From a virus, in the IMG/VR virus record IMGVR_UViG_3300037722_000409, positions 28,322 to 92,321 of that record: a DNA stretch of 64,000 bases, one strand, 5' to 3'. The notes beneath the pieces were generated by a model that did not search any database, had not been told where the DNA came from, and saw nothing but the letters and a program-made list of their open reading frames with translations. Shown piece after piece: positions 2,828 through 40,673 of this stretch (position 1 is its first letter; each line of letters opens with the position of its first letter). Position numbers and translations under genes: made by a program.

Positions 2828-4537
2828 ATGGGACTATTAGATCGTATACTTGGCAGAAAGACCACACGTCCGGGCGTTCAGTCCGGGCCTGTTCCTAACC
2901 CCGCAGCTGCGCAGTTTCTCAAAAGCCTAGAGGTGCAGCTGGCGCAAGGAAACTTGTCCCCGCGCGAGACTGACGCCGCACGGCTTGTTAAAGCCATCGT
3001 GCATCGTCAGTCGGTCAATGCGCCCACAGTTGGGGTGCCTGATCTAGGGTTTAAAGGTGCGCGTCAGCAGCTGTTCCAACGGTTTAACCTGATCGACCTG
3101 TACGGCATGGCGCACAACAACTCCACGGTCAAGACCGCCGTGTTGACCTTACGACACGAGGTCTTCCGTCGTGGGTTGCAGTGGGACCCGGCGTTCGCGT
3201 ACCGCTGTCCAACGTGCCACGTTGACTTCTCCAAGGATGAACAGACCGAGCACGACAAGCGCTGCCCAGAGTGCAATTCTGTGCTGCAGTCACCCAACCC
3301 CCTGCAACGCGTGCAGTTCGAGCGGCTTATGCCTCACGTTAACCTGTACGGCCAGAGTCTACTGGGGCTGCTCAAGACCTTGGAGGACGACCTGAACATC
3401 GCCGACGACGCGTTCTTGCTCGCGTCCTCAGAGTACCAGCTCGCAAAAGACGAGTATGGGCAGTCGACCATCAAGCGGTTCGTGCGGCAACTCTTCCGCC
3501 TCGACCCCATATTCATGGAGTTTGACACTGACGACAACAACCGCCCCGGCCTAGCGCACCACATCTGCCTGGCCCACCGGGAGAGCCTGCTGGAGGTCCC
3601 CCGTGACGCTGGCTGGGAACACGACTGGAAGGGCGTGTGTCCCATTGACGGGTTTCCGACCCTCCCAGTGGTCTATCGTTATGTGCCGACACGCGGCACC
3701 TACGGCGCGCAGAAGGGTGGGGTGAACACCGCCAAAGATGCGTACTACTTCGTCAAGGGTGAGGTGATCCACGCCAGCAAGTACAGTCCGTCAGAGCTAT
3801 ACGGCTACGCGCCCCTGCTCGGCCTGTACGAGAAAGTATTGTCTCTCATAGGCATGGACCGCTACCTCTACGACTACTTCTTCGAGCGCAAGATGCCGCA
3901 GGGCGTCATCACCACGGTCACCGACAACCCGGAGCAGCTGGAGATCGACAAGGAGATCGTGCTGGCTAAGACCCTTGAGGACCCGCACTACCTTCCGTGG
4001 CTGGCGGTGAGCAGCAACTCTGGGCAAGGACGCACGGAGTTTGTACGGTTCGCCTACTCGTTGGACGAGCTCCAGTTCCTGCCAGTGCAGGAGGCTCTAG
4101 CTCGAGCAGTAGCTGGGCTATACGGCATCCCCGACCTATTCATGGGATTCGAGACCAACACGGGGGGCATCGGCAACCAGAGCCAGCAGGTCACACGTAT
4201 GGGTCGTGGCGCTGCCGCCTCACAGGCCGTGCACAACACCGATGTTCTCGCCCCGCTGCTTGAGGTCATGGGTGTGACTGACTGGGTGCTGACCTTATCC
4301 TCCGCTGAGGACTACACCGAGACCGAGGAGTGGGACATCAAGGACCGAAAGGCGCAGTGGGCGCAGACCATGCACTCCATAGGGTTCGGCATCAAGTATG
4401 ACCAAGAGTCGGACGAGTTCACCGTGACAGGTGAGGTTCCCTCGCAGCAAGAGCAGCAACAATCTCAGCAGCAGCAAGATCCATACTCTCAGTTCGGTGG
4501 TGGAGCCCCAGGAGGTGGCGCCCCTGGAGGCTTCTAA
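2828..4537 (+). CDS. portal protein with zinc-ribbon insertion
   Basis: Size and position after TerL. EDDLNIADDAFL, EVIHASKYSPSELYGYAP and AVAGLYGIP resemble HK97-type portal motifs. CPTC..CPEC insert. Confidence 0.85.
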   Translation: MGLLDRILGRKTTRPGVQSGPVPNPAAAQFLKSLEVQLAQGNLSPRETDAARLVKAIVHRQSVNAPTVGVPDLGFKGARQQLFQRFNLIDLYGMAHNNSTVKTAVLTLRHEVFRRGLQWDPAFAYRCPTCHVDFSKDEQTEHDKRCPECNSVLQSPNPLQRVQFERLMPHVNLYGQSLLGLLKTLEDDLNIADDAFLLASSEYQLAKDEYGQSTIKRFVRQLFRLDPIFMEFDTDDNNRPGLAHHICLAHRESLLEVPRDAGWEHDWKGVCPIDGFPTLPVVYRYVPTRGTYGAQKGGVNTAKDAYYFVKGEVIHASKYSPSELYGYAPLLGLYEKVLSLIGMDRYLYDYFFERKMPQGVITTVTDNPEQLEIDKEIVLAKTLEDPHYLPWLAVSSNSGQGRTEFVRFAYSLDELQFLPVQEALARAVAGLYGIPDLFMGFETNTGGIGNQSQQVTRMGRGAAASQAVHNTDVLAPLLEVMGVTDWVLTLSSAEDYTETEEWDIKDRKAQWAQTMHSIGFGIKYDQESDEFTVTGEVPSQQEQQQSQQQQDPYSQFGGGAPGGGAPGGF

Positions 4538-10466: not shown

Positions 10467-10819
10467 TGAAACTCTCAGCTCTGATATACCGTGGACAGCT
10501 GGTGGAGATCTCCCAGGTACCAGACAACTTCCAGTTCGGGGAGCACGGCAACCACTATCACATCCCGGTGCACGCGGCCAAAGAGCACCTGTGCTTGACC
10601 AATCCGATCATAAGTGAGGACAACAATGACAGTTCAGATATCCACGATCTGCGTTATTAGGGGCTGCAGCAACTCAGCCGTCTACTTCATGCGCCGGATA
10701 AAGAGGGACGGCACCTTCCAGGAAGGGCTGATGTGTCACCGGTGTGACGCTCGGTATGGCCGCGAGAACATGGCCGCCCTGGGTATAATGGAACAGAGCG
10801 ACAACGAGGAGGTGGAGTC

Positions 10820-11212
10820 ATCTTTAACTCAATAACAGTTACCGGGAACTTAGGTGCGAACCCAGAGATGCGCTACCTGCCCAACGGCACGGTCGTCACC
10901 AACTTCACCGTGTACGATCACTACAAGTACAGCAAGGGCCGTGAGGACATCACTCGGTTTCGCGTGGTGTTTTTTGGCAAGGTAGCAGAGCTGGCCAACG
11001 AGTTCCTCAGCAAGGGCGACCTGGTGGTCCTCTCGGGCCGCCTGCGCCTGGTGACCTTCACCGGCCGCGACGGAAAGGAGAAGACCTTCGCCGAGATCAT
11101 AGGTAACGAGTTTCGGTCTCTGACTCGTCGGCGCCAAGACGATGATGACGCCACTGAGCCAGACGGGGAGAGCTGGGCTCCCACAGCTGACGTCGACGAC
11201 CTCCCGTTCTAA
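10820..11212 (+). CDS. ssb: single-stranded DNA-binding protein (probable ATC start at 10820)
   Basis: FNSITVTGNLGANPEMRYLPNG...VVFFGKVAE..FLSKGDLVVLSGRL, with acidic tail DDLPF. Confidence 0.92.
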   Translation: MFNSITVTGNLGANPEMRYLPNGTVVTNFTVYDHYKYSKGREDITRFRVVFFGKVAELANEFLSKGDLVVLSGRLRLVTFTGRDGKEKTFAEIIGNEFRSLTRRRQDDDDATEPDGESWAPTADVDDLPF

Positions 11213-11238: not shown

Positions 11239-11267
11239 CTACGCCGAGACTAGCAATCTCGGCGTAG
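11239..11267 (+). terminator. hairpin terminator after ssb
   Basis: CTACGCCGAGA/TCTCGGCGTAG 11-bp stem. Weak U-tract. Confidence 0.55.
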
Positions 11268-11288
11268 CTGTATCTTAGGGTTAAAAAC

Positions 11289-11344
11289 TGTTACATTCCT
11301 GTTACATTCTACCTATATACAACAGCGTGTCTAGGGTATATAGT
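11289..11344 (+). promoter_or_regulatory. promoter with upstream TGTTAC-N5-TGTTAC direct repeat (copy 1)
   Basis: TATACA-17-TATAGT. The element recurs at 15106 and 39944. Confidence 0.7.
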
Positions 11345-11401
11345 ATATATACAGTCAAAAAAGACCGGAGGAACCTACCAAAACAACCCGCACCAACGTC
11401 A

Positions 11402-11570
11402 ACATAAACGAGGTCTCCCGATACAGCCTCACCAAAGCAAATCGGGACGGTGGCAACCGTGACAGCCCGCGACACAGAACAGCGCGTTAACTGAGATGAC
11501 ACAAGAACACAGATCAGGATCTCATATGAAGCCGCTCGTGAGCCTTATGGATCAGGGGCGGTTTAAATGA
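11402..11570 (+). ncRNA. candidate structured ncRNA, copy 1
   Basis: Paralog at 15212-15375 with compensatory base changes. Lies downstream of a promoter with no credible ORF. Confidence 0.75.
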
Positions 11571-11599
11571 GGACCAAGATCTAAGCAAAGGAGAGTCGC

Positions 11600-11788
11600 A
11601 TGAGAATACCAGAGTCGACCCCCAATGAAATCTCTCAAATGCAAGCTGAGATAATCAAAGACATCGATCGCCTTACCGAGGAGCTCTTCGAAGCGCAAGA
11701 GGCCCTCGCGTACTTGAAAGACCACAAAAACGGCGACCACGCGGACCGGCACGATCTAAGTAAAGGAGAGTCACATGATAATACCTGA
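11600..11788 (+). CDS. small hypothetical protein (paralog of next gene)
   Basis: MRIPESTPNEISQM. RBS AAAGGAGAG. Confidence 0.7.
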   Translation: MRIPESTPNEISQMQAEIIKDIDRLTEELFEAQEALAYLKDHKNGDHADRHDLSKGESHDNT

Positions 11789-11960
11789 CGCCACTCCCGA
11801 AGAAATCACTCAAATGGTCGAAGAGTTGAAGGCTGCGTACGGGGCAGCAACCGACGCGGCCGCCGACGCCTTAGAAGCTATGGAAACCTTGTACGATCAC
11901 CGGTGTGGTAAGCACTCAACTAAACGTGATTTAATGTGCCTCGCCTGCGGGGCTGACTAA
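11775..11960 (+). CDS. small hypothetical protein (paralog of previous gene)
   Basis: MIIPDATPEEITQM. Duplicated RBS context. Confidence 0.7.
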   Translation: MIIPDATPEEITQMVEELKAAYGAATDAAADALEAMETLYDHRCGKHSTKRDLMCLACGAD

Positions 11961-13357
11961 GGAGGGCCACCAATGGACAAATTTACCTTGGAGTACACGC
12001 AAGCCATGGTACGGGAACTGTACAACGCGACCATGGACACTCTGAACACCCTACTGCCGAGCGAGCGCGACCTGCGCGCAGCTATCATAGCTGAGCGTCG
12101 AGCCTACGGTGTAGTCCTCGATAACATCAGAGCTTTACTGCTGGAGGTCAACTCTTAATGAACGCCACTCTCAAGCCCCACCGAGCCACGATCCTCAGTC
12201 TCCTGACCCACGTGCAAGAGTCCGGCAAGGCCTCTCGCTCGGATATGTTCCAGTACCTGCGCTCCACCACGCCCATGAGCACCAAGAACGTCAACAATCT
12301 GATAAACGACCTGATGGCGGACGGCGCCTTCACGGTCGCATGGAGGTAACAGATGTTACTCAAGCTCGTCGCCTTCGGGCTTTTCGCCTACGGGTTCTTC
12401 TCTGGCTGCGCCTACCTGATCAATAAGATCAACGCCGCGCACGCTGCGGAGGCTGCCAACGTGGAGGCTCTACTCCGGGCCGCTGGATTGAGCTAACATG
12501 GAACCCAAGAGGACCTGCCCGTGTGGGTTTGACCTGAGCTTGGTAAGGTGCACCGAGCTCTACGGCGTCAAGATGCACCGCCCAATAAATCCCCCGAAAG
12601 GAGAGTATTAGATATGGCGAACAAAGCGGAAGTCACCAACCTGGTAGCGGTCAACCTCTACGAGAGGGTCTTCAAGAGCGGCAGCACCGGCTTCTTTGGC
12701 CGGGTCGTCGATCCCGCGACCGGTAAGCAGTATCAGATCACCGCCGCCGTCGAGATCGGTACCAAGCCCAAGGCGGCCTAACTCGTCACCGTCCCAACTA
12801 ACTCGCAGGTGAACGACATGATTACCTTAGTCTAGCGCGTGACGCGCTCTCAGTATAAGTTTCACCTCTTAAACACCTCTTTATAAAGAGGGGCAAGTTT
12901 GAACAACACCAAGGGTGGCACCTGTCGGCTGGCAGGCACATAGCTCACCCACGGGCACGTTTGACTACTGATCACTGCCGCCTGCAACACGGCGGCACAA
13001 TTGAGCAGCCAAGCTAGGTAAGGAGCAACACATGAAGGACTCAAGCAAACACGTAAAGCGCTCCCTAAAGGTACTGAGCAATCGGCAACTGCAGCACCCC
13101 ATAATGCACCACTTCGTGGAAGACGTGAGCACTCACCAGTGTGAGAAGTGCCAGCTAGCGCGGAGCGCCCACTGCAAGTAGAAAAGGAGGAAACGCCATG
13201 AGTGTAAAGGGGGAGGCCAGGGCCAAGCGCCTCGACAGCAAGCGCGCCAATAGCCAGCCCCGCTCCAACCGCAAGGCCCTCATGGTCGGGATGTACGCCC
13301 GCCTGACCCGGTCTTTGAAGGAGGCGCGGCTGAGTAAAATTACACAAAAGGAGAGCA

Positions 13358-13744
13358 ATGGTTGATCTAAAGGGGCTCATAATCGGGGTGGTGGCTGGGT
13401 TTGCCTTCGCCCTCGTAGGGGTATACGCCTACAACATCCTGACGATCAATGGCACGGCCACCGGTGTAGAAGGCATCGAGGCGGACAAGCTCGTCTTCAC
13501 CGCGCAATTGTACCCCAACGAGACCGTGGTCGAGACCATCACGTTCACCAACCTCGGCAGCGAGGCTATAGACATCGACCTGAGTGACGTGGTCACCGGC
13601 CCTAACCCCAGCACCATCACGGTAGACCTGCCGGCGAAGCTCACGATACTGGGCGGCGGCACCAAGACCGCTGATGTGGAGATGGTGGCTAAGAACAACC
13701 TGGAGCCCGGCGAGTACAATATCCAGATTTTAGTAACACGGTAG
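13358..13744 (+). CDS. membrane-anchored beta-sandwich (Ig-like) protein
   Basis: N-terminal TM segment, then a beta-rich region ending PGEYNIQI. Confidence 0.6.
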   Translation: MVDLKGLIIGVVAGFAFALVGVYAYNILTINGTATGVEGIEADKLVFTAQLYPNETVVETITFTNLGSEAIDIDLSDVVTGPNPSTITVDLPAKLTILGGGTKTADVEMVAKNNLEPGEYNIQILVTR

Positions 13745-13756
13745 GAGGTAAACAAC

Positions 13757-14368
13757 ATGGGTTGGTGGAAAACGGACTTCGACATTTCCATAGGCGACGA
13801 GCCGGCCGACATCGTAGGCTCTGGCTTGGAGGCTCTCCTGGCAGAGTGTCAGCTGAGGATCCCTGGGTTCACCGAGGATCAGTTCATGGCTACGGTGTCA
13901 TTCGTGGCCGGTGGTATTCCCTGCGGGTACTCCCTGGACCTAGCTCAGAGGGGCCTAACAGAGCTACCCATGGACTACGACTTCAACTCTCCGACGGCTG
14001 AACTTACCCCAGCACTCGGCTCCTCCCAGACCTTGGGGTTTCCAGCTACTGAAAAGTGGATCGACACCTACGAATACACCGGGGGTGAACTCTTAAAAGT
14101 GTCTCGGCTCACTACCGACGCCCCTGACATGGAACTTGACGAGCTGGTACAGAGCATCAAGGCAGAGATCATGGCTGATATCAGAGACGATATCCTGCCA
14201 CGGTACGTGGGCAGCTTTGAGGAGCTCAACGACTCGGTTGACGCCTGGGAGTACGGCGATTTGACTAACACCAGTGAAGACCTGCGCCAGCTCACCCTCG
14301 CAGAGGTGAACTACATCCACGGCAAGATTGACTACTGGCTGCAGGGTCAGCCCGGGATCGAAGAGTAA
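13757..14368 (+). CDS. acidic hypothetical protein
   Basis: Strong RBS AGGAGG. Confidence 0.6.
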   Translation: MGWWKTDFDISIGDEPADIVGSGLEALLAECQLRIPGFTEDQFMATVSFVAGGIPCGYSLDLAQRGLTELPMDYDFNSPTAELTPALGSSQTLGFPATEKWIDTYEYTGGELLKVSRLTTDAPDMELDELVQSIKAEIMADIRDDILPRYVGSFEELNDSVDAWEYGDLTNTSEDLRQLTLAEVNYIHGKIDYWLQGQPGIEE

Positions 14369-15079
14369 AGGGTTCCTGCCCCCTGGGTGAGATTACAAAT
14401 CGGAGGATCGTATGAACATCACCACGAAAACCATGCTTGCCACCGCCTTGGCCACCCTTGACAGCTCAGCTGACTTCCGAGAGGCCAACACCATGTTCAA
14501 TATGGCGCACCGCGCGCTGCAGGCACGAGCTCGCGGCCAGTTCCACGTGGGAGACGCGGTCAAGTTCACCGACAAGTCCGGTCAGGTCATCACCGGCCTA
14601 GTGGCCGCCATCAACCCGAAGAACATCAAGGTGAATCAGTTCCACCATGTACCCGGAGAACTTCCGACCCGGTGGAACGTCACTCCGTCCTTACTGACGC
14701 CCGCGGGTGCACGGTGAAGAAGCTGACCTCAACTGAGTCACTGAAAGCGATGACTCGGATCATCGAGGCGCTCACCACCATACGGGAGGAGTCCAACCAC
14801 TTTCACCGGCACCGCTACGAACTGAACATGCACACCCGAGACCTGGTTGCCCACATTAACACCATCCGAGAGACCTACGGGCTCTTACCTTTTGAGGAGG
14901 ACCCAACCGATGGCAAACTCTAGAATCTGCACCCCCTGCTCCAAGGGCTCCAACAAGAACTGCCAGAAGCGGTTCGCCGCTCCCTCCAACCGGACCGAGC
15001 TTACCCACGGGCAGCAGCCCAGGCGGCCCCTCTACTCCTACAAGTGCCCCAACGCCCCTAAGTCCTAGCCTCCGCAGTC

Positions 15080-15100
15080 AGGGCGCCTTATGGCGCCCTT
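15080..15100 (+). terminator. hairpin terminator before the second promoter/ncRNA unit
   Basis: AGGGCGCC-TTAT-GGCGCCCT. Confidence 0.5.
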
Positions 15101-15105
15101 CAAAC

Positions 15106-15161
15106 TGTTATCTTCCTGTTACTTTAGGCCTATATACATTAGCACCCTACGGGTATATGAT
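15106..15161 (+). promoter_or_regulatory. promoter with TGTTAT-N5-TGTTAC direct repeat (copy 2)
   Basis: TATACA-17-TATGAT. Confidence 0.7.
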
Positions 15162-15211
15162 ATATCTACGGTAAAGAACAGGGAGCCAACAGTCAACAGT
15201 ACTTAAGCCAC

Positions 15212-15375
15212 ACATAGACGAGGTCGCTCGATACAGCCTCACCAAATCAAATCGAGCCGGTGGTCAACGTGAAGACCCGCGACAGAGAACAGCGCGTTAA
15301 CTGGGAGGCCACAAGAACACAGGATCAATTCCGCATATGAAGCCAACGAGCCTTACGGATCGCCGGCTTAAGTGA
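15212..15375 (+). ncRNA. candidate structured ncRNA, copy 2
   Basis: Aligns to 11402-11570 with covarying stems. Confidence 0.75.
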
Positions 15376-17402
15376 GCAATGGATTACAAGGAGCCTTAAA
15401 TGGTTACATTTTCTTACGAGCAGCGACGGTGATTGTAATCACGGTCGAGCTTTGGCCGGGTGGCAGAGAGTCTCAAAAACGGACTCTGGCGACAGCCACC
15501 ATAACAAATGACGGCACGGGAACCAAGACCACTGGCAACTACCGGTACAAGCTTAGCGGTGCTAACGGGACCCCTATGAAGAAGGGTATAGGGAGAGTGC
15601 TTGGCTTTGCGCGCAAACGCAAGCATGTTTGGGAGCTTACGCACGCGGTTCTTCAAAATATATATAGCCCGGAGGTAAGTACTCATGGAAAAGTCTGAGA
15701 TCGTAGAGCGTCTCTTGGAGATCCGAGATGAGGTCAGCACCTTGGTTAACGAGGCGGCTGACATGCTGCAGCACACGAATGCCTACAGTCGAGCAGACGC
15801 CTACTGGCTGGCACAGATGCAAGCGGCCCTCGGCAACAGCGGGCGAGAGATGTGCACCATAGTAGACACCATCGACGCACTTTCTCCCCACGTGTGCTCA
15901 CACTGCGGCCACACGTACGAGTTCGACTACTGCGAACGAGAGACCTGCTACTAAACTGCCAGCTGGTCAAAAATCAGTGAACTAAAGGAAGCTTACATGA
16001 TCAAGATATACGAGACCGAGTTTCCGCGAGAATACTGGCCCTCTGACGAGGAGGTAGCTCTCATGGAGCACGCTGGGCTAGAGGACAGTAGCTGGCACAA
16101 TGAGGCGTGCTGCAGCTGGAGTGACTACATGAAAGAGATCCAGCTCTTCATCCACCCAGTCGAACCCAAAGACCACGAGTACCCCAACCCGTTTCGGATC
16201 CACATCTTGACCATACGTGACGACCAGGACACCGAGTCGTTGCTCAGCACCAACAGCCTTGACGAGGCGCTGGCGTTCATAGTCAAGTACTGATGTACAA
16301 CGCCACCGTCTTCGAGCTTAAGGCCGACACGAAGGGCAGCATGCGAATTGCCCAGGTCTTTCTAGCGGAGCTCGACAACAAGGGGCGGATGACACGCTCG
16401 TCCGCCCTACAGAACACCGGCCTCGAGGGCAGCCACGCGTACCACAAGCACTTTCTTAGTGTTCACCCCGGCTCCACTCTCGAGATAACGTTAGACGGGG
16501 GTCTAGGATACGAGTCCATGGTTAACGGGGGCGTACCTCAAAAGTCGCCCCAGTGCACCTCTATCTCGTATAGACGAGCCCATCCACGTCCCCACCCCAG
16601 CAAGCCACGAGACACGGATACCGATTAAATTTACACGGAGGACAAGTATGACCACGCCAGAAGTAATCAAGCCCGCGGTGCAGCTCAGTGGACAGGACGG
16701 AAACGTATTCAATCTTATCGGCCTGGCGGCCAAAGCCCTCAAGAGGGCTGGCTTGAAGCAGGAGGCCAGCGACCTCACCAGCCGCGCCTTTAAGGCGGAC
16801 AGCTACGGAGCTGTTCTCGAGCTGATCGCGGAGTACTGCGAGGTCAGCTAACCAGACACAAGACAGGGGGGTGACTTGCATGGAGCCGTTTATCATCTTT
16901 CCATACAGCGTGCGCGGCAAGGTGTTCGTGGAAGCCTACCCCCTCAAGGACCGCCCTGAGCCGATTCAAGCTCTGGCCCCTATTGGGAGTATAATAGTGT
17001 ATGCTCCCTCGCGCAACAACGCGCGCCGGCAAGCCTACACTCGGTGGATTCGCTCTGACGGGGCAGGCTTCAACAAGTTTTCACGGTCACCATGGGACAT
17101 CACGTTTAAGGAGGCACATCATGGCTAGCGGCTACTACCCGCCAGGGGTCACCGGCAACGAGTACGCCATATCTGGCCCGGACTACGAGCAAGAGATCGA
17201 CGGTGAGTGTCCTCACTGCGGGGAATCGGCTCTCATGGAGATAGGATACCGGCACGAGGCGTGGGTCACCTGCACCATGTGTGGTAAGCTGCCAACCGAT
17301 CCCCTCAGCCCCGAGCGCCAAGAGGAGCTCTTCAACCTGTAGAAGGCTCTCAGCCTTTTACGGACTCCTCCCAATGTGATATGATAGCAGGAGGCAGCCA
17401 CC

Positions 17403-33459: not shown

Positions 33460-36400
33460 ATGACCACTCTACTGGCCACGTCGACAGACGGGCTCCACAG
33501 GCTCATCGAGACCGAGGACGGACTAGGCTACATCGAGGACACCCAGTCTGGAGCTCGAACCGAGGAGAAGTCGGTGGTGTCGCTCTTGTCTGCCGCCATA
33601 GACTGGAGTGACGATGACGGCGACGTCGATAAGGCGGCTGTCAGTCCTGACTGGCACGCCATGCAGGAGACTGGTGTGTCGCAGACACCTATCGAGAAGG
33701 CTGGTCCTCCTCGCCCAGGCCTTGTACCTCAAAGCGGAGATCCTGAGCACCCGGTACGGTGGGTCAGACCAGAAGAGTACGACGATGAGCCTGAGGAAGA
33801 GCGACCTAAACCTAGAGCCCCGTACGCTGAAGCCGTCGTGATGTTTCACGGGACCACCACCGCCGCTGTAGCCTCTATTAAAGAAAAGGGTCTTGTTCCA
33901 GCAGGAGGCGCTGGCGCGGACGCGTGGGCCCATAAAGAGGGTATGGCACAGTGGCTTGGTATAACCACCACAAAACGCCCGCAGTCTTCCTTTGTCTCTG
34001 AGCGCGCGGAAGACGCCCTCACGTACGCGAGGTACGCCACCGAGGTAAGCGGGGGGCAAGCCATCCTCTTACAGATTGATATACCTGCCCAGCACTTTGA
34101 CACTCACGCTAAAGCCGACGAGCTAGCACGGGGTCGCGGTGCGTATAGGTTCGAAAAGGGCATTCCCCCTGAGTGGATAACCGTGTTGCCCACTGACTAC
34201 CTCACCAAGGCCGACGACAGCACGCGTCGTCTTTACGCTGTCGTGATGGCTAACAACAACACTATAGAGAAGGCCGCCCCACCACGTCCTGGCCTGGTTC
34301 CACAGTCAGGTGACTGGGAACACCCTGATCGTTGGGTGCGGCCCGAGGACGCGGCGCCTGGTGATGACATTGATAACCCAGAGACGTGGGAGCCGTACCA
34401 GCCGACAGCTAGAGTAACCGACCTATACCATGTTACCGCGGCGGATAACCTGGCCAGCATCAAGCAGCACGGGCTTATCTCAGCTGCTGACCCGTCTGGG
34501 ATAGCGACGTCGACCTTGTCAGAGCCGGTGCCCACTCAACGGGTGTTCTTCACCACCAGCCTCGAGCAGGCCAAGGTTCTGTTTGACCAGGGTCAAGAGC
34601 ACGGCGACATGGCTATAGTGCACCTGCAGTTGAACCAAAAAGAACTGGCCGCCACTGACCCACGAGTCGACCCTGGCGTCGAAGAAGCTGTAGCGGTTAA
34701 CCCTAACAAGAAGCTCGTGGCCAACGGCTTGATGCGTGTGTACGCCTCAAATCCAAAGAAGGTACCACGCGCGTGGCAGGAACGATTAGTTCTTACAAAA
34801 GCTGTGGTCACTACCCCCATGGGCAAGGACGGGGTCGAGTACGACAAGGTAAAGACCGGTGACAGCATCTGGATCACCATCACCAATCCCGAGTCTCCGC
34901 TGCACGGCCGGCACATCCTCATCACCAAGCGTCCAGACGGGCTCTTCGCCATTACCGGCGGCATGGGCGGTGACACCGAGGCACGCCGGCACATGGTGAT
35001 AGGTGGGACGCCTAAGCGCTCAAAGCGTGACGAGGCGCTAGAGGAGGAGATCGAGAACGTAAAGGAGTACAACGAGCCGCTTGAGGCGGCTGCTAGACAG
35101 CTTCGTCAAGAGTCAAAGAAGGAGCTGACCGAGGCCAGTGACCAGATGCTGGAGGCCTTGGGCCTTGACCGGGTCGACAAAGATGAGATGCTCAAGCGTA
35201 AGGACGACGTTCAGAACTACGTGGCTGACCAGCTTGGTGAGGAGGCAAGCAGCGATGAAGCTAAGAGAATCACTGACACGATTATGCGCTCCGTTGCGTC
35301 ATCTGAGCGCAAGGTTAGAGAGCGAGTCCAACGAGAGCGACAAGTCGCGGTCCTCAAGGTTGGCAAGCGCCTCGCCGCGCTTCGTGAGTCCGGAGCGGGT
35401 GACAGCGAGGTCGCGGCTGTCGCGGGTGATGGCCTTGAATCGCTTATACCCGATCGCGACCCCTTTAGCGTGTCACTGCCGCCAGTCGACGCACTCAAAG
35501 ACCTGTCAAAGGAAGAGCTTGCTTCTGCCGTCGCGAATCATTTTGACGCAGCAGCAAATCAATATTTTGAGGCTGAACGGGCTGAGCATCCAGACCAAGG
35601 CGATACCCCCACTTTCGACCTTGGAGCGTCTGTCAAGCCCCTAGAGCTAAAGGACCACGCTCAGCTTACCGAGGCGATCGACAGCGTGCGTGGCTACTGG
35701 CAGAAGCGTGCTGAGGCGGAAGAGACCAGCAAGGCGCTCAAGAAAGTTCCTCTAGCGGCTGCTGTTCCCAGCACCCTGGCCAGCATCAGGGACCTCGCGG
35801 CACAGTCGGTCGGGACCATGTCTGACGCTGAGGTAGAACAGAGGGCCACCGCCAACTATGAGGGCTGGCTGCGCACCAACACCGCCTTGGCGTTCTACGA
35901 CGCTGTGGGAGAGTACTGGAACGACGACCGCTCCTTGAGCGACCGCCTGCACGATAAGGATAGAGCAGACACCGTGATGCAGTACCACGTCAACTCTGGT
36001 GCGGCCACAGCGCTGGCGGCTTTGTCACAGAAGTACGCGGGAAGTAAGCTTGACACCCTGCGCTTGATCGAGTCTGGAAACGTAGAGCTTGCCGCCTCCA
36101 TGGCTGCCCTCGAGGCTCGGCAGTCTGCCGGCTCACCCGAGGCGTTCAACACCATCATCCAGCAGGTGAAGGACTTCAACGCTACCAATCAGGCACAGAC
36201 CGAGAAGGTAGCTCTCGACCGTCACGCCACCCTAGACAAGCAGCTCCAGGAGATCAAGCGTCAGCAGCAGTCAGGTGAGCTCTTAGACAGGATACGCGGC
36301 TCAGCCTTGGAGCTCTCCAACCTGGTGGAGCAGCGCAAGAACCTGGGGACCGCCCTCGGCAGCTTGCAGGCCAGCGCCACGTTCTTCGACCGACTTGAGC

Positions 36401-38208
36401 ACTTCGGTAAGGCCAAGGACGACGTGGTGGACATCAATGTGGGTGCAAACCTACAGGATGCCGAGGCCATGATCAACCGTCTCGGGTTGACCAAGAACTA
36501 CGTGGTGGACACCAGCGACCCGGACAACCTGCGCGTGCGTGTAGGCCTGAGCGGCCTAGGACGACACGTGAGCCGAGAGAAGGACGCGGCCGCCAAGAAC
36601 GACCGCTTCAACGCCATCAAGACCAACATGGAGGGCGTAGGTGAGGACGAGCAGGGCAACATGGTGGTGGACAATTACGACGTACCAGGGTGGAACCGCA
36701 CCTTTACCGACGCTGAGGGAACCGAGCGCGAGTACAAGTGGAGGGTGGAGCAGCGCAACGACATCGAGTGGCTACGAGCCGCCACCGAGAAGACCGAGGA
36801 CAACCCCACCGGAAAAGGCGGGGGTCTTATAACGCGGGTGGTTGGCGCAGGCAAGACCAACACCACGCTTGGGTTCTACGCACACCAGCTGGCGGCTAAC
36901 CCAGACTACAAGGGGATCGTCGCCGTGCCTAAGGGACGCGCTGAGCAGTGGGTCGACGAGGCCAAGAAGTTCAGTGGTCTAAACGTGCAGCTTATCCCAG
37001 AGGGAGCTAGCAAGGCAGACGTCGACGAGGCGCTCATGTCAGCCAAGCCTGGGACCATCGTGGTCACCGGTCACCGTGAGGCGGCCCGCGCTCACGACAC
37101 CATAAACGCCCTGCAGACCAACGAGGACCAGTCCTTGCGCTACCACGGCCTCACCATCGACGAGCCGCAAGAGCTGCAGTCACGGGGCCAGAGTGGAAAC
37201 GTGGGGGCCCTGGGACGACGCCTGATGAAGATCGACTTTGACCACCGCCTCGGGCTGACCGCCACCCCAGCTCGAAAGCTGCCCACCGAGGCCTACGACC
37301 TGATCAAGTGGTCAAGCGGAGCAAAGGACCTCGGAAGCAAGGCGAGCTTTAAGCGTTCTTTCGGGGGCTTTGGCAGCGGGACCAACGCCCAGGATGCCGC
37401 TGTAGCCGAGGCCTACTTTAAGACCATCTCTCCCTACATCAGCGGAGACCGCATGACCGACCCCACCTTTAAGACCTCTCACGAGATGGTTGACGTTAAG
37501 CGCTCACCGTCTCAGGTGGCTGAGCAGAAGCGCATCGAGGCTCAGTCGGTCAGCTACGTAGACCAACGCCGGTCAGCACTGCTGAGCGAGGCGGCGCAGA
37601 ACCCGAACCACGCCCTCAACCGTGGCCCTGAGGCGACACGCGCCAGGCGTGCCAAAGACCAAGCCCGCAAGGAGGTCGCCGCCATGCACGAGTCAAACTT
37701 AGCTGGTGGGGACTGGCGCAACAACTCCAAGCTAGCCGCGGCCAGCCAGCGGATACGACCTGGTGACGACAAGAAGCACGTGGTCTACATCGACAGCAAG
37801 AGCCAGCGGCAAGCCGTGATGAGCATGCTGGTAGACAGCGGCTATCCTGCCGCCGAGGTCAAGAACATCGCGGCCACCACGACCAGCATGACAGGGCGTG
37901 AGATGGCAGCTAGGGTAAGAGCTTTCCGCGAGAACCCGAAGGTGAACGTGATCATGATCGACCGGACGTCCGCGAGTGGTTACAACCTTCAGAGCGGAGA
38001 CGACCTGCACGTACTAGGGACCCCGGTCGACGCTGCCAACTACCTACAGGCGCAAGGACGCATCGCGCGCATGCCACGGACTGGTGACGTCAACATCCGC
38101 ACCTACCGCTACGACGACGCTCCTGAGGAAGCTGCGGCATGGAACGATCTCGATAGCCAGCTAAAGGTGCTACGTGCGTCTAGCCCAGGCCTATTTAGTA
38201 ACCTATAG
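33460..38208 (+). CDS. polyvalent protein: two tagged Tpt1/KptA-like ART domains plus C-terminal SF2 (SNF2-like) helicase
   Basis: FHGTT..SIKEKGL..IPPEWI; YHVT..SIKQHGL..VFFT; helicase motifs GAGKT, DEPQ, TATP, GYNLQ, QAQGRIAR. Confidence 0.8.
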   Translation: MTTLLATSTDGLHRLIETEDGLGYIEDTQSGARTEEKSVVSLLSAAIDWSDDDGDVDKAAVSPDWHAMQETGVSQTPIEKAGPPRPGLVPQSGDPEHPVRWVRPEEYDDEPEEERPKPRAPYAEAVVMFHGTTTAAVASIKEKGLVPAGGAGADAWAHKEGMAQWLGITTTKRPQSSFVSERAEDALTYARYATEVSGGQAILLQIDIPAQHFDTHAKADELARGRGAYRFEKGIPPEWITVLPTDYLTKADDSTRRLYAVVMANNNTIEKAAPPRPGLVPQSGDWEHPDRWVRPEDAAPGDDIDNPETWEPYQPTARVTDLYHVTAADNLASIKQHGLISAADPSGIATSTLSEPVPTQRVFFTTSLEQAKVLFDQGQEHGDMAIVHLQLNQKELAATDPRVDPGVEEAVAVNPNKKLVANGLMRVYASNPKKVPRAWQERLVLTKAVVTTPMGKDGVEYDKVKTGDSIWITITNPESPLHGRHILITKRPDGLFAITGGMGGDTEARRHMVIGGTPKRSKRDEALEEEIENVKEYNEPLEAAARQLRQESKKELTEASDQMLEALGLDRVDKDEMLKRKDDVQNYVADQLGEEASSDEAKRITDTIMRSVASSERKVRERVQRERQVAVLKVGKRLAALRESGAGDSEVAAVAGDGLESLIPDRDPFSVSLPPVDALKDLSKEELASAVANHFDAAANQYFEAERAEHPDQGDTPTFDLGASVKPLELKDHAQLTEAIDSVRGYWQKRAEAEETSKALKKVPLAAAVPSTLASIRDLAAQSVGTMSDAEVEQRATANYEGWLRTNTALAFYDAVGEYWNDDRSLSDRLHDKDRADTVMQYHVNSGAATALAALSQKYAGSKLDTLRLIESGNVELAASMAALEARQSAGSPEAFNTIIQQVKDFNATNQAQTEKVALDRHATLDKQLQEIKRQQQSGELLDRIRGSALELSNLVEQRKNLGTALGSLQASATFFDRLEHFGKAKDDVVDINVGANLQDAEAMINRLGLTKNYVVDTSDPDNLRVRVGLSGLGRHVSREKDAAAKNDRFNAIKTNMEGVGEDEQGNMVVDNYDVPGWNRTFTDAEGTEREYKWRVEQRNDIEWLRAATEKTEDNPTGKGGGLITRVVGAGKTNTTLGFYAHQLAANPDYKGIVAVPKGRAEQWVDEAKKFSGLNVQLIPEGASKADVDEALMSAKPGTIVVTGHREAARAHDTINALQTNEDQSLRYHGLTIDEPQELQSRGQSGNVGALGRRLMKIDFDHRLGLTATPARKLPTEAYDLIKWSSGAKDLGSKASFKRSFGGFGSGTNAQDAAVAEAYFKTISPYISGDRMTDPTFKTSHEMVDVKRSPSQVAEQKRIEAQSVSYVDQRRSALLSEAAQNPNHALNRGPEATRARRAKDQARKEVAAMHESNLAGGDWRNNSKLAAASQRIRPGDDKKHVVYIDSKSQRQAVMSMLVDSGYPAAEVKNIAATTTSMTGREMAARVRAFRENPKVNVIMIDRTSASGYNLQSGDDLHVLGTPVDAANYLQAQGRIARMPRTGDVNIRTYRYDDAPEEAAAWNDLDSQLKVLRASSPGLFSNL

Positions 38209-38325
38209 ACTATAGCTCTCTCCCTTGCTCAACATAGTTATACTATACTCAGTAGAGACGTTGTGCCACGTCGATAGTTATCACGCGTAATCGCCTGTGA
38301 GGTGCGCCCATGACCGCTCAAGGAG

Positions 38326-39712: not shown

Positions 39713-39943
39713 GTTGCTGCTCTACACTGGCTGGCTCATGCTGCCCAACGACGAGGAGGGCGCCGAGATAATGGTCAAGCTTGGCAACTCCCTCTGGGTC
39801 AATGGGTACCGGGATGACGACGGCCCGTTCGTAGAGTTCGACGTGGAGGTAGTGGGGAACGACCTTTGGCTGCTCGAGCCGCACTGGGGCGTGGCGCTCT
39901 GGGGACTCAGGCCCACCGGCTTCGACGACTTCAGCGAGTAAAC

Positions 39944-39988
39944 TGTTACCTTCCTGTTATATACGTTAGCACGCTCAGGGTATATGAT
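39944..39988 (+). promoter_or_regulatory. promoter with TGTTAC-N5-TGTTAT direct repeat (copy 3)
   Basis: TATACG-17-TATGAT. Confidence 0.7.
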
Positions 39989-40673
39989 TAAATAGTCACA
40001 AAAGGACTAAGGGGAGCGGCTAGTGAAGGTAATCAAGAAGAACCTCTCGTTTAAGGACGCCAGGAATCTGGCTGACAGCCTGGCGCTTGCTACAGACAAG
40101 GTTCACTCGGTCAAGAGAGAACGGACCACCAAGCCTACCTTTAGTGTGCACGAGGGAATGGTAGGCACCCTGCTGGCTAACTCGTACACCGCTAGGCCTG
40201 AGACCTTGAAGTGGAATAGGAGTAAATAACATGTGGGTCGACTCACACCCCGTCGGATCGTGTGTGGCCTGTTGGCCTTCACGCCCCACCCCTTGCCGGA
40301 CCTGGGTCTCCGTAGGCACTAAGCCTCAATATCTGGACCGGGTACGAATTAACGCTACCGGCAAAACTGGAATTGTAGTTCACGTCTACCCCAACGGGTT
40401 CGCCTGCGTTGCCGGCGCCACTCCCGTGCAGGGGAGCGTGTTGAACAACAACTCGACGTACACCTGGGACCAGTTTACCATACTGCCTAACAAGGATGTA
40501 CAATAACCCATGAAACGTCGCTACATTCACGTCAATCAACTAGAACACACTATTCAATACGGCCCATGCCCTAAATGCGAAGCCGAGGCTGGGACCCCGT
40601 GCACTATTGACGAGTTCGGGGGCTCCCATGTTCACGCCGAAAGAATCGTAACGTTTGGAAGGAGGGCTAGATA

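What the first reader, a model, noticed from the sequence alone, without database searches (positions are those of the whole stretch)
11402..15375. Duplicated ~165-nt pseudoknotted ncRNA with compensatory mutations
SEEN: 11402-11570 and 15212-15375 align (offset 3810 in the 5' half). Stem TCCCGAT(11416)/ATCGGGA(11441) becomes GCTCGAT(15226)/ATCGAGC(15251), giving two compensatory pairs. It interlocks with invariant GAGGT/GCCTC across an A-rich linker, forming an H-type pseudoknot. Further varying stems are CGG-tg-GC/GC-CCG vs CGG-tg-GTC/GAC-CCG, TGAGAT/ATCTCA vs GGGA/TTCC, and AAGCCGC/GCGGTTT vs AAGCC/GGCTT. Two conserved GATC loop segments could pair with each other. Both copies follow a terminator and the same promoter type, and precede unrelated small genes. 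INFERENCE: an early-expressed structured RNA, such as a decoy or antitoxin mimic, antiterminator, nuclease-resistant leader, riboswitch or ribozyme. I do not recognise it.
Basis: partly seen in the sequence, partly recalled or inferred. Interest (0 to 1): 0.85.

Follow-up and report, generated by a model that had tools for sequence, protein, structure and literature searches.

The report
Three-copy pseudoknot leader RNA in phage
An uncultured 92-kb sediment phage starts three of its operons with the same knot-folded, non-coding RNA leader that matches no catalogued RNA family; compensating mutations preserve the fold, but its job, perhaps keeping RNA polymerase transcribing, is untested.

Summary
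The two stretches (11402-11570, 15212-15375) align at 81-86% identity. A third, more diverged copy (about 62% identical) lies outside the window, at 3850-3934 of the same 92,321-bp phage record.

Across the three copies, four helices keep pairing in 60 of 60 cells. These are an H-type pseudoknot (S1 of 5-6 bp, S2 of 7 bp), a bulged hairpin P3, and a 3-bp hairpin P4 displaying an invariant GCGUUAA loop. Ten of 20 pairs change on both sides, none on one side only, and slid or shuffled controls give none of this. No reading frame is open in all copies. An invariant U·G pair and the promoters place the fold on the + strand.

Each copy begins 51-58 nt after the predicted start of a sigma-70-like promoter of one class (TATACA-17-TATAGT type, behind two CTGTTAC repeats). 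The RNA runs into unrelated operons without a convincing terminator, so it is a cis leader, not a free ncRNA. A fourth promoter of the class lacks it.

Rfam gives nothing, even at E ≤ 10. No homologue turned up in any collection I could reach, and the nearest complete relative lacks it.

Function is inferred only. My best guess (about 0.35) is a put/EAR/canT-like element acting on the transcribing polymerase. The proposed GATC-GATC pairing is not supported.

The parts
11239..11267 (+). Terminator-like hairpin that closes the SSB gene unit, upstream of promoter A
   Evidence: 11 pairs, 7 of them G-C, with a weak U-tract.
11288..11305 (+). Two direct CTGTTAC repeats, 11 nt apart start to start, upstream of the -35 box. 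This is the signature of the promoter class.
   Evidence: The same pair occurs at all four promoters of the class.
11316..11344 (+). Sigma-70-like promoter A (TATACA, 17-nt spacer, TATAGT); predicted transcription start near 11351
   Evidence: The start site is inferred from the position of the -10 box.
11351..11409 (+). A/C-rich, U-poor 5' segment of leader A. It carries a conserved Shine-Dalgarno-like GGAGG (11367-11371) with no usable start codon.
   Evidence: A 47%, C 32%, U 7%. The equivalent GGAG at the fourth promoter is a real ribosome-binding site.
11410..11447 (+). Copy A H-type pseudoknot: S1 GAGGT 11410-14 / GCCTC 11426-30; S2 TCCCGAT 11416-22 / ATCGGGA 11441-47; L1 is C, L2 is ACA, L3 is ACCAAAGCAA
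   Evidence: All cells pair, with 6 compensatory pairs across the three copies.
11448..11469 (+). Copy A P3: CGG-[TG bulge]-GC ... GC-CCG
   Evidence: 2 compensatory pairs.
11470..11493 (+). Copy A junction CGAC + A-rich stretch, then P4 (CAG/CTG closing the loop CGCGTTAA; GCGTTAA is invariant)
   Evidence: 2 compensatory pairs against copy C (GGG/CCC).
11492..11524 (+). Copy A P5 (TGAGAT/ATCTCA), tentative
   Evidence: no more stable than shuffles. A hairpin occupies this position in all three copies, but each has a different sequence.
11529..11564 (+). Copy A P6, a long irregular hairpin found only in copies A and B. It overlaps a 14-codon mini-ORF that is probably not translated.
   Evidence: -21.8 kcal/mol, z -4.4. 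Absent from copy C.
11600..11788 (+). First gene of operon A: a 62-aa ORFan, tandemly duplicated at 11775-11960
   Evidence: (repeat family D8).
15076..15098 (+). G+C-rich hairpin that ends operon A, upstream of promoter B
   Evidence: the structure line of the PhrS partial match. It has no clear U-tract.
15105..15122 (+). CTGTTAT / CTGTTAC direct repeats of promoter B
15133..15161 (+). Sigma-70-like promoter B (TATACA, 17-nt spacer, TATGAT); predicted transcription start near 15168
15220..15257 (+). Copy B pseudoknot: S1 GAGGT 15220-24 / GCCTC 15236-40; S2 GCTCGAT 15226-32 / ATCGAGC 15251-57
15258..15303 (+). Copy B P3 (CGG-TG-GTC/GAC-CCG, 15258-79), junction, and P4 (15290-15303)
15303..15369 (+). 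Copy B accessory hairpins: P5 (GGGA/TTCC, tentative) and P6 (AAGCC 15340-44 / GGCTT 15365-69)
15429..15698 (+). First conserved gene of operon B (phrog_8231-like). Its true start is GTG 15429.
   Evidence: the N-terminus MIVITVELWPGG is conserved among homologues.
39943..40025 (+). Fourth promoter of the same class, without the RNA element. Its GGGGAG ribosome-binding site and GTG 40023 follow directly.
   Evidence: (repeat family D5).

Best explanation
**What is shown.** The element is a structured leader RNA made as the first 180-260 nt of three phage operon transcripts.

- Each copy starts from a sigma-70-like promoter of one class, so the host RNA polymerase is the likely enzyme.
- The leader opens with about 50 nt of A/C-rich, unstructured RNA.
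- A core of about 85 nt follows. It holds an H-type pseudoknot: S1 of 5-6 bp, a 1-nt L1, S2 of 7 bp, an ACA junction and an A-rich 8-10-nt L3.
- After the pseudoknot come a bulged hairpin (P3), a conserved CGAC junction, and a 3-bp hairpin (P4) that displays an invariant GCGUUAA loop.
- The helices vary by compensation while the loops and junctions stay fixed. That pattern is typical of an RNA with a tertiary fold that is recognised by something.

**What is inferred.** The core sits at a fixed distance from the transcription start and a variable distance from the first start codon. It heads unrelated operons. I therefore think it acts in cis, co-transcriptionally, on the elongating polymerase or the nascent transcript. 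It would make transcription of long, partly untranslated operons resistant to Rho-dependent or intrinsic termination. This is how the put RNAs of HK022, EAR of Bacillus subtilis and canT of Tn916 work.

**Confidence.** That this is a selected, structured, cis-leader RNA: about 0.85. The antitermination mechanism itself: about 0.35, which is the figure given below.
For: **Fold**
- Three copies and no more in the 92-kb genome: covariance model R1, filters off, scores 113, 113 and 89 bits, and the next hit scores 12.6.
- 60 of 60 cells pair. 10 of 20 pairs are compensatory and none change on one side only. 0 of 500 shuffles reach this, and slid controls fail.
- Paired columns vary more than unpaired ones, 20 of 40 against 18 of 51.
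- If the 20 variable paired columns fell at random, the chance that they make exactly 10 whole pairs is 1.3e-6.
- No frame is open in all three copies.
- S1 carries an invariant U·G pair, which would be an A·C mismatch on the other strand.
- The geometry fits a classical H-type pseudoknot, where a 1-nt L1 can span a 7-bp S2. This rests on established knowledge, not a test here.

**Cis-leader status**
- The promoters lie at 11316-11344 and 15133-15161, and a same-class promoter precedes copy C.
- S1 starts 51-58 nt from the predicted transcription start in all three copies. The distance from the core to the start codon varies from about 50 to about 135 nt.

**Consistency with a polymerase or transcript role**
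- The downstream operons are unrelated. Copy C heads the replication module: DUF932, RNase H, DnaB, primase. Copies A and B head clusters of small ORFans.
- The leaders are long, untranslated and A/C-rich, which is the kind of RNA that Rho loads on.
- Cis-acting antiterminator RNAs of mobile elements are structurally diverse and sit just after early promoters. put occurs as two paralogous copies and contains a minor-groove triplex (PMC9378689). EAR, canT and conAn2 are covered in PMC11658703.
Against: - No functional data of any kind exist, and no RNA sequencing run holds this phage.
- Covariation rests on three paralogues in a single genome. Gene conversion or shared descent could inflate the apparent conservation of the loops.
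- I found no clear intrinsic terminators inside the three operons. Terminator-like hits are at chance level, so nothing visible needs overriding. Rho sites cannot be read from sequence.
- Each module is itself preceded by a terminator hairpin, and that terminator would be bypassed if upstream polymerases were modified.
- The architecture differs from put, which is two stem-loops of about 70 nt.
- The nearest complete relative (terminase 59% identical) has no such RNA and uses short leaders. The element is therefore not essential to this phage type.
Confidence: 0.35

Rival explanations
1. The element is a docking site for a regulator, either a phage or host RNA-binding protein or a small-molecule ligand (a riboswitch aptamer). 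The regulator would switch the three operons together, for example shutting off or boosting early and middle transcripts at a set time.
For: - The loops and junctions are invariant (ACA, A-rich L3, UG bulge, CGAC, GCGUUAA) while the helices covary. This is the signature of aptamers and protein-binding RNAs.
- H-type pseudoknots with an A-rich loop 3 are common ligand pockets (established knowledge).
- Three operons share one element, which suits co-regulation.
Against: - No expression platform is visible. No terminator or anti-Shine-Dalgarno pairing is shared by the three copies. P6 is absent from copy C, and the distance to the ribosome-binding site varies.
- No pseudoknot riboswitch family of Rfam matches, even at E ≤ 10.
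- The genes downstream share no function that would point to a ligand.
Confidence: 0.25
2. The element is an mRNA stabiliser. The pseudoknot, possibly together with the 5'-proximal Shine-Dalgarno-like GGAG acting as a ribosome-binding 'STAB-SD', blocks 5'-to-3' exonuclease or 5'-end-dependent endonuclease attack and lengthens the life of the operon mRNAs.
For: - The element sits at a fixed distance from the 5' end.
- A GGAG is conserved 16-20 nt from the predicted start, with no usable start codon in copies A and B and a GTG-TAA start-stop in copy C.
- Compact pseudoknots are known exonuclease roadblocks, and 5' Shine-Dalgarno-like stabilisers are known in Bacillus (established knowledge, not tested here).
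Against: - About 50 nt of unstructured RNA precede the knot, whereas classical 5' stabilisers sit at the very end.
- The host, and so its RNase set (RNase J or RNase E), is unknown.
- The GGAG may simply be a relic of the ribosome-binding site seen at the fourth promoter.
Confidence: 0.18
3. The element is a self-cleaving ribozyme or an RNase processing signal that trims the leader and gives all three mRNAs a defined 5' end.
For: - A conserved tertiary-type core sits in a leader.
- Phages carry many small ribozymes (established knowledge).
- Junction nucleotides are invariant.
Against: - No Rfam ribozyme family matches at E ≤ 10.
- The strand order of the pseudoknot does not fit the HDV-like fold. 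There, the P2 partner lies at the 3' end, and P3 and P4 hairpins fill the loops (my comparison, from knowledge of that fold).
- No candidate cleavage site can be named.
Confidence: 0.07
4. The element acts in trans as an abundant decoy or sponge, for example an antitoxin mimic, a host-factor sponge or an anti-defence RNA, released from the leaders.
For: - Three copies behind sigma-70-like promoters that are probably strong and early would give high dosage.
- The phage invests heavily in host takeover. It has polyvalent proteins with ADP-ribosyltransferase-type (ART), SNF2 and topoisomerase domains.
Against: - The copies are dispersed rather than tandem.
- There is no terminator or processing signal that would release the RNA.
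- Nothing resembles ToxI-type repeats or CRISPR repeats.
- The fixed spacing from the promoter is not needed for a decoy.
Confidence: 0.08
5. The RNA fold has no function. The similarity is only a duplicated promoter cassette, like the promoter-early stem-loop cassettes of T4-type phages that mediate shuffling, or a DNA-level protein-binding site. The pairings would then be incidental.
For: - The repeat includes the terminator and promoter context and flanks ORFan clusters.
- Relative G001 has its own, unrelated two-copy 129-nt promoter cassette.
Against: - Ten double changes and no single change in 20 pairs, with all 60 cells paired, is not what drifting duplicates give (the 1.3e-6 estimate is).
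- A dimeric DNA-binding protein would keep one half-site sequence rather than let both halves change in step.
- The interlocked strand order and the U·G pair point to folded single-stranded + strand RNA.
Confidence: 0.05

Closest known systems
HK022 putL/putR RNAs (factor-independent processive antiterminators; PMC9378689)
   Same: - Cis-acting structured RNAs encoded just downstream of phage early promoters.
- Present as paralogous copies in one genome that share sequence and fold.
- put stem I contains a minor-groove RNA triplex. The A-rich loop 3 here is placed so that it could form one on S1.
- Both head long operons.
   Different: - put is about 70 nt with two stem-loops in a V shape and no pseudoknot. 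This element is an H-type pseudoknot plus two or three hairpins, with a core of about 85 nt.
- There is no sequence similarity.
- Binding to the zinc-binding domain of the RNA polymerase beta' subunit and read-through activity are untested here.
- The host is unknown.
EAR (B. subtilis eps operon), canT (Tn916) and conAn2 (pLS20) antiterminator RNAs (PMC11658703)
   Same: These show that RNA-based processive antitermination recurs in mobile elements and long operons, with unrelated and sometimes complex folds.
   Different: - EAR is a catalogued family, and no Rfam family matched here at E ≤ 10.
- canT activity needed fragments of 341-452 nt (a 291-nt fragment was inactive), and its fold is undefined.
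- None of them is known as a three-copy promoter-linked leader.
T4 gene 32 translational operator (a 5' pseudoknot followed by an unstructured leader)
   Same: A phage mRNA leader with an H-type pseudoknot and an unstructured stretch rich in one or two bases.
   Different: - In T4 the knot nucleates binding of the single-strand-binding protein (SSB, gp32) on that gene's own mRNA and lies upstream of its ribosome-binding site.
- Here the knot follows the unstructured stretch and heads three unrelated operons.
- The phage's SSB gene lies upstream of copy A, in a separate unit.
Pseudoknot riboswitch aptamers (guanidine-III, SAM-II/V, preQ1-II/III, NAD+-II)
   Same: A compact H-type pseudoknot with an A-rich third loop, conserved loop nucleotides and covarying stems. 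Guanidine-III even shares an ACGAGGU string.
   Different: - No match to any of their Rfam models at E ≤ 10.
- In guanidine-III the ACGAGGU string is a loop, whereas here GAGGU is a stem strand.
- No shared expression platform.
- Three copies on unrelated operons.
Promoter-early stem-loop (PeSL) cassettes of T4-type phages
   Same: Repeated early-promoter cassettes that flank clusters of small ORFans in a phage genome.
   Different: PeSLs are a promoter plus a simple terminator-like stem-loop, seen as recombination substrates. Here an 85-nt multi-helix RNA is kept by compensatory change. This comparison comes from memory and was not tested.

Membership tests
Any Rfam 15 family (4227 models) | A score at or above the family's gathering threshold, or at least a suggestive E-value | tested here: not met
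   - Whole window at gathering thresholds: only two tRNAs, elsewhere in the window.
- Permissive scans at E ≤ 10 of copies A, B and C: nothing for A and C.
- For B there were two chance partial hits outside the core, lincRNA-p21 on the minus strand and a PhrS terminator piece.
HK022 put RNA | About 70 nt, folded as two stem-loops (stem I with a triplex, stem II) in a V shape | tested here: not met
   The covariation-supported fold is an H-type pseudoknot plus P3 and P4. The put description is taken from PMC9378689.
HK022 put RNA | Located downstream of early promoters, in paralogous copies within one phage genome | tested here: met
   Three copies lie 51-58 nt downstream of the predicted starts of same-class sigma-70-like promoters.
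HK022 put RNA | Binds the zinc-binding domain of the RNA polymerase beta' subunit and suppresses pausing and termination without protein factors | not testable with these tools
   This needs transcription assays or structural work. No RNA sequencing run holds the phage.
lambda-type nut site / rrn boxA | A single-stranded boxA (GCUCUUUAACAA-like) next to a boxB hairpin, with an N-like arginine-rich protein encoded nearby | tested here: not met
   - The invariant GCGUUAAC matches the E. coli boxA at only 7-8 of 12 positions. I counted this by eye, taking the boxA sequence from memory. The motif also sits in a hairpin loop.
- The small proteins downstream have no recognisable domain and are not arginine-rich.
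Guanidine-III and other pseudoknot riboswitches | A match to the family covariance model, its conserved loop nucleotides, and an expression platform | tested here: not met
   No Rfam hit at E ≤ 10. No terminator or Shine-Dalgarno-masking helix is shared by the three copies.
T4 gene 32-type operator | A pseudoknot at the 5' end of the leader of the single-strand-binding protein (SSB) gene, followed by an unstructured stretch reaching its ribosome-binding site | tested here: not met
   The SSB gene (about 10820-11212) lies upstream of copy A and is closed by a terminator. The leaders head other genes.
Protein-coding small ORF | A frame open and conserved in all copies, with indels in multiples of three | tested here: not met
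   - No frame is free of stops in all three copies.
- Indels against copy C are 2, 1 and 3 nt.
- The 12-14-codon mini-ORF of copies A and B is absent from copy C.

The most novel reading that the evidence does not exclude
The element is a new structural class of factor-independent, RNA-only processive antiterminator or anti-Rho device. A pseudoknot-based leader rides on the host RNA polymerase from three phage promoters and so programmes which phage operons are transcribed to the end. Equally unexcluded is a phage riboswitch that senses a host or defence signal and gates three operons at once.
Probability: 0.3. Interest if true: 0.78.

Novelty: new variant of a known kind. Interest (0 to 1): 0.6.

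Why it matters
**If the antitermination reading is right.** Only a handful of RNAs are known to reprogramme RNA polymerase by themselves: put, EAR, canT and conAn2. Each new fold shows another way in which RNA can grip the enzyme. A compact 85-nt pseudoknot module that works from a defined promoter would also be a handy, portable part for building long synthetic operons.

**If that reading is wrong.** The element is still a clean example of an uncatalogued structured RNA family. Its fold can be read from three paralogues inside one genome. It also marks a co-regulated set of early and replication operons in a phage lineage from marine and other sediments that has no cultured member.

**Wider context.** Notes from this scan (AI-written, unchecked) report several other uncatalogued pseudoknot leaders in unrelated phages. 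That suggests a wider and largely undescribed layer of phage gene control.

Tried and rejected
**Searches for homologues, all negative**
- blastn of the module against 50,697 GenBank phage records.
- Five exact or degenerate word scans of IMG/VR built from blocks shared by the copies. Only chance hits inside coding regions came back, which I checked by eye and with model R1.
- SSB-anchored scans of IMG/VR (none) and of GTDB genomes (only distant cellular SSBs at 44% identity or less).
- A JGI metagenome scan anchored on the phrog_8231-like gene that follows copy B. It returned 16 loci, and none has the element upstream.
- A terminase-anchored IMG/VR scan. It returned 80 loci, 1.06 Mb in all, with no R1 hit at E ≤ 1.
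- Fifteen whole related records searched through handles. The two 15-bit hits lie in coding sequence.
- The closest complete relative, G001, searched with filters off.

**Relatives I could not reach**
- Closer relatives exist. One has a terminase 81% identical and an SSB 58% identical, apparently on the same 18,163-nt Logan contig (P0025 and P0006). Several 90-180-kb ENA and NCBI contigs have terminases 50-63% identical.

**Sequencing runs**
- No RNA holder was listed.
- The two DNA runs are the probable source sample and a low-depth identical copy. They show no variants.

**Ideas rejected**
- The mini-ORF MKPLVSLMDQGRFK / MKPTSLTDRRLK as a leader peptide. It is absent from copy C, and its 3-nt indels are matched on the two strands of hairpin P6.
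- GATC-GATC pairing. It is not conserved in copy C.
- An alternative P3 (CGG/CCG closing a short loop) and a CGCG/CGCG helix. Both lack covariation or are broken in one copy.
- The boxA resemblance, which is only 7-8 of 12 positions.
- An HDV-like double pseudoknot, because the strand order does not fit.
- A search for internal terminators that antitermination would have to override. Terminator-like hits are at chance level.

Full report
**Setting**

The window is bases 28322-92321 of a 92,321-bp IMG/VR phage record that CheckV rates as complete.
- The source is a sediment metagenome.
- Nearly all genes lie on the + strand.
- The phage has a terminase, a portal and structural proteins only distantly like those of cultured phages.
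- It has giant polyvalent proteins with ADP-ribosyltransferase-type (ART), SNF2, topoisomerase IB, Nudix and methylase domains.
- It has a replication module.
- It has no close relative among 50,697 GenBank phage records.

**Checking the observation**

The two stretches are a real repeat.
- Identity is 86% over 111 ungapped nt at offset 3810.
- Identity is 81% over the whole module.
- The module comprises a terminator-like hairpin, two CTGTTAC direct repeats, a sigma-70-like promoter and a long leader.
- The promoters are TATACA-17-TATAGT at 11316-11344 and TATACA-17-TATGAT at 15133-15161.

**A third copy**

BLAST found only two copies in the genome. Searching for the CTGTTAC pair, however, gave four promoters of this class.
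- The promoter at genome 3751, outside the window, is followed by a diverged third copy at genome 3850-3934, held as L085.
- The fourth promoter, at window 39943, runs straight into a ribosome-binding site and GTG 40023, with no element.
- A covariance model built from the three copies and run over all 92 kb with filters off finds exactly these three. Scores are 113, 113 and 89 bits, and the next hit scores 12.6.
- Another first-stage note on this genome had also listed three copies. I had found the third copy independently, before reading that note.

**The fold**

On alignment A7 (copy A 11403-11493, copy B 15213-15303, copy C L085:3850-3934) I counted four helices.
- S1: GAGGU/GCCUC in A and B, GAGGGU/GCCCUC in C.
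- S2: UCCCGAU/AUCGGGA in A, GCUCGAU/AUCGAGC in B, GCUCAGU/ACUGAGC in C.
- P3: CGG-[UG]-GC/GC-CCG in A, -GUC/GAC- in B, -AC/GU- in C.
- P4: CAG/CUG in A and B, GGG/CCC in C, closing the loop (C/A)GCGUUAA.

The counts strongly favour real pairing (the first three helices alone are).
- All 60 cells are standard pairs.
- 10 of 20 pairs change on both sides, and none change on one side only.
- 0 of 500 shuffles reach these values.
- Sliding the 3' partners by 1-3 columns gives 25-47% pairing and at most one compensatory pair.
- The two S1 "changes" are really a single event, a matched insertion on both strands. Independent events therefore number about nine.

Three further results fit a selected, tertiary-folded RNA.
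- Paired columns vary more (20 of 40) than unpaired ones (18 of 51).
- If the variable paired columns fell at random, the chance that they form ten whole pairs is 1.3e-6.
- No reading frame is open in all three copies, and the indels against copy C are 2, 1 and 3 nt.

The strand is the + strand.
- The invariant U·G pair in S1 would be an A·C mismatch on the other strand.
- The promoters and genes agree with this.

The strand order S1-S2-S1'-S2' is that of a classical H-type pseudoknot. The loop lengths are one nucleotide (C) across the 7-bp S2, an ACA junction, and an 8-10-nt A-rich loop across S1. That geometry judgement rests on established knowledge.

The remaining helices are less secure.
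- P5 sits at the same place in all copies, but its sequence differs in each, and in A and B it is no more stable than shuffles.
- P6 is a strong hairpin in A (z -4.4) and moderate in B (z -1.8), but absent from C.
- The conserved core is therefore about 85-90 nt, not 165.
- The proposed GATC-GATC pairing fails in copy C.

**Context**

Distances from each predicted transcription start (7 nt after the -10 box) show what the element is anchored to.
- S1 begins 51-58 nt downstream in all three copies.
- The distance from the end of the core to the first start codon varies from about 50 nt (C) to about 105-135 nt (A and B).

The first 50 nt of each leader have an unusual composition and a conserved motif.
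- They are A/C-rich and U-poor: A 37-47%, C 25-32%.
- They carry a conserved GGAG 16-20 nt from the start.
- At the fourth promoter the equivalent GGAG is the working ribosome-binding site of GTG 40023.
- In copy C it is followed by GTG-TAA, a start-stop. In A and B the start codon is gone.
- The RNA therefore looks as if it was inserted behind an older promoter-plus-ribosome-binding-site cassette, or was lost from the fourth one.

The genes downstream are unrelated.
- Copy C heads the replication module: a DUF932-like protein, RNase H, DnaB and primase.
- Copy A heads a run of ORFans of about 60 aa.
- Copy B heads a phrog_8231-like gene whose true start is GTG 15429, followed by more small genes.

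No convincing terminator separates the element from these genes. It is the leader of the mRNAs, not a stand-alone ncRNA.

**Is it known?**

- Rfam 15 gives nothing at gathering thresholds.
- It gives nothing relevant at E ≤ 10 on any copy.
- The ACGAGGU string shared with the guanidine-III riboswitch is coincidental. It is a loop there and a stem strand here, and the model does not match.
- The invariant GCGUUAAC resembles boxA at only 7-8 of 12 positions, and it sits in a hairpin loop.

**Is it elsewhere?**

Every route open to me came back empty.
- Five word or pattern scans of IMG/VR.
- SSB-anchored scans of IMG/VR and of GTDB genomes.
- A JGI metagenome scan anchored on the gene after copy B.
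- A terminase-anchored IMG/VR scan: 80 loci and 1.06 Mb, plus 15 whole records.

The closest complete relative is G001, at 90,882 bp with a terminase 59% identical.
- It has no match even with filters off.
- It uses its own two-copy 129-nt promoter cassette with short leaders.

Closer relatives exist in Logan, ENA and NCBI assemblies, with terminases up to 81% identical. The family is thus known from one genome only, and R-scape-type statistics on independent lineages remain to be done. Sequencing runs gave no RNA data and no variants.

**How it probably works**

What is shown is a selected, multi-helix RNA fold in the leaders of three operons, tied to one promoter class and anchored to the transcription start rather than to the ribosome-binding site.

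What I infer is that it acts in cis on the elongation complex or the nascent transcript. The best-fitting precedent is RNA-only processive antitermination.
[quoted passage not shown] It has a minor-groove triplex and binds the zinc-binding domain of the RNA polymerase beta' subunit (PMC9378689).
- EAR, canT and conAn2 show how varied such RNAs are (PMC11658703).
- Long, untranslated, A/C-rich leaders invite Rho, which would give such an element something to do.

Several points count against this reading.
- I found no internal intrinsic terminators above chance.
- Each module is itself preceded by a terminator hairpin.
- The fold differs from put.
- A related phage manages without the element.

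I put this mechanism at about 0.35. The rivals are a regulator or ligand docking site (0.25), an mRNA stabiliser or exonuclease roadblock with a STAB-SD-like GGAG (0.18), a trans-acting decoy (0.08), a ribozyme or processing signal (0.07), and no RNA function at all (0.05).

**Verdict**

- The element is an uncatalogued structured leader RNA, which I file as a new variant of a known kind: cis-acting phage leader RNAs.
- Interest is moderate to high. The fold is unusually well defined for an orphan, but it is confined to one genome so far and its function is untested.

Noticed in passing
L085:3850-3934 (genome coordinates, 24.4 kb before the window start): A third, diverged copy of the RNA sits behind a fourth promoter of the class (CTGTTAC/CTGTTAT at 3751 and 3762). 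It heads the replication module and lacks hairpin P6.
   Followed up: yes
window 39943-40025: A promoter of the same class directly abuts the stop codon of the upstream gene. It has no RNA element. Its GGGGAG ribosome-binding site and GTG 40023 start a 68-aa gene.
   Followed up: partly
L085:3819-3836; window 11367-11371 and 15181-15185: A Shine-Dalgarno-like GGAG is conserved 16-20 nt after each predicted transcription start. In copy C it is followed by GTG-TAA, a start-stop mini-ORF. In copies A and B the start codon has decayed. It may be a ribosome-binding-site relic or a 5' stabiliser.
   Followed up: partly
window 15400-15432: A 10-codon mini-ORF (ATG 15400, behind AAGGAG) ends in a GTGA overlap with the true GTG 15429 start of the phrog_8231-like gene. 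This suggests translational coupling.
   Followed up: partly
window 11575-11641 and 11750-11816: A tandem duplication covers a small gene together with its ribosome-binding site (67 nt, 82% identical). It gives the two paralogous ORFans of about 62 aa at 11600-11788 and 11775-11960.
   Followed up: no
window 19450-48567: Thirteen copies of a coding repeat of about 56-84 nt (a peptide like PPRPGLVPQSGDW..P..RW) lie inside the giant polyvalent-protein genes. Other notes of this scan read them as cargo tags.
   Followed up: no
window 38221-38256 and 52878-52913: A 36-nt motif (TCCCTT...TTATACTATACTCAGTAGA, 75% identical) recurs right after the ends of the two largest genes (33460-38208 and 47279-52852). 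It could be another promoter or regulatory class.
   Followed up: no
window 10817-11212: The SSB gene appears to begin at a non-standard start. Homologues align from residue 1 at about 10820 (IFNSIT against MLNSIT), whereas the first ATG is at 10868.
   Followed up: partly
window 55808-55875 and 56278-56345: Adjacent paralogous genes (55397-55870 and 55873-56340) share their 3' ends and the following ribosome-binding site at 79% identity.
   Followed up: no
G001 (L189:3379-3507 and L189:18285-18413): The nearest complete relative carries its own unrelated two-copy 129-nt cassette (93% identical). Read on the minus strand, it is a TG-extended -10 promoter with a short leader. Repeated promoter cassettes may therefore be a habit of this phage group.
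   Followed up: partly
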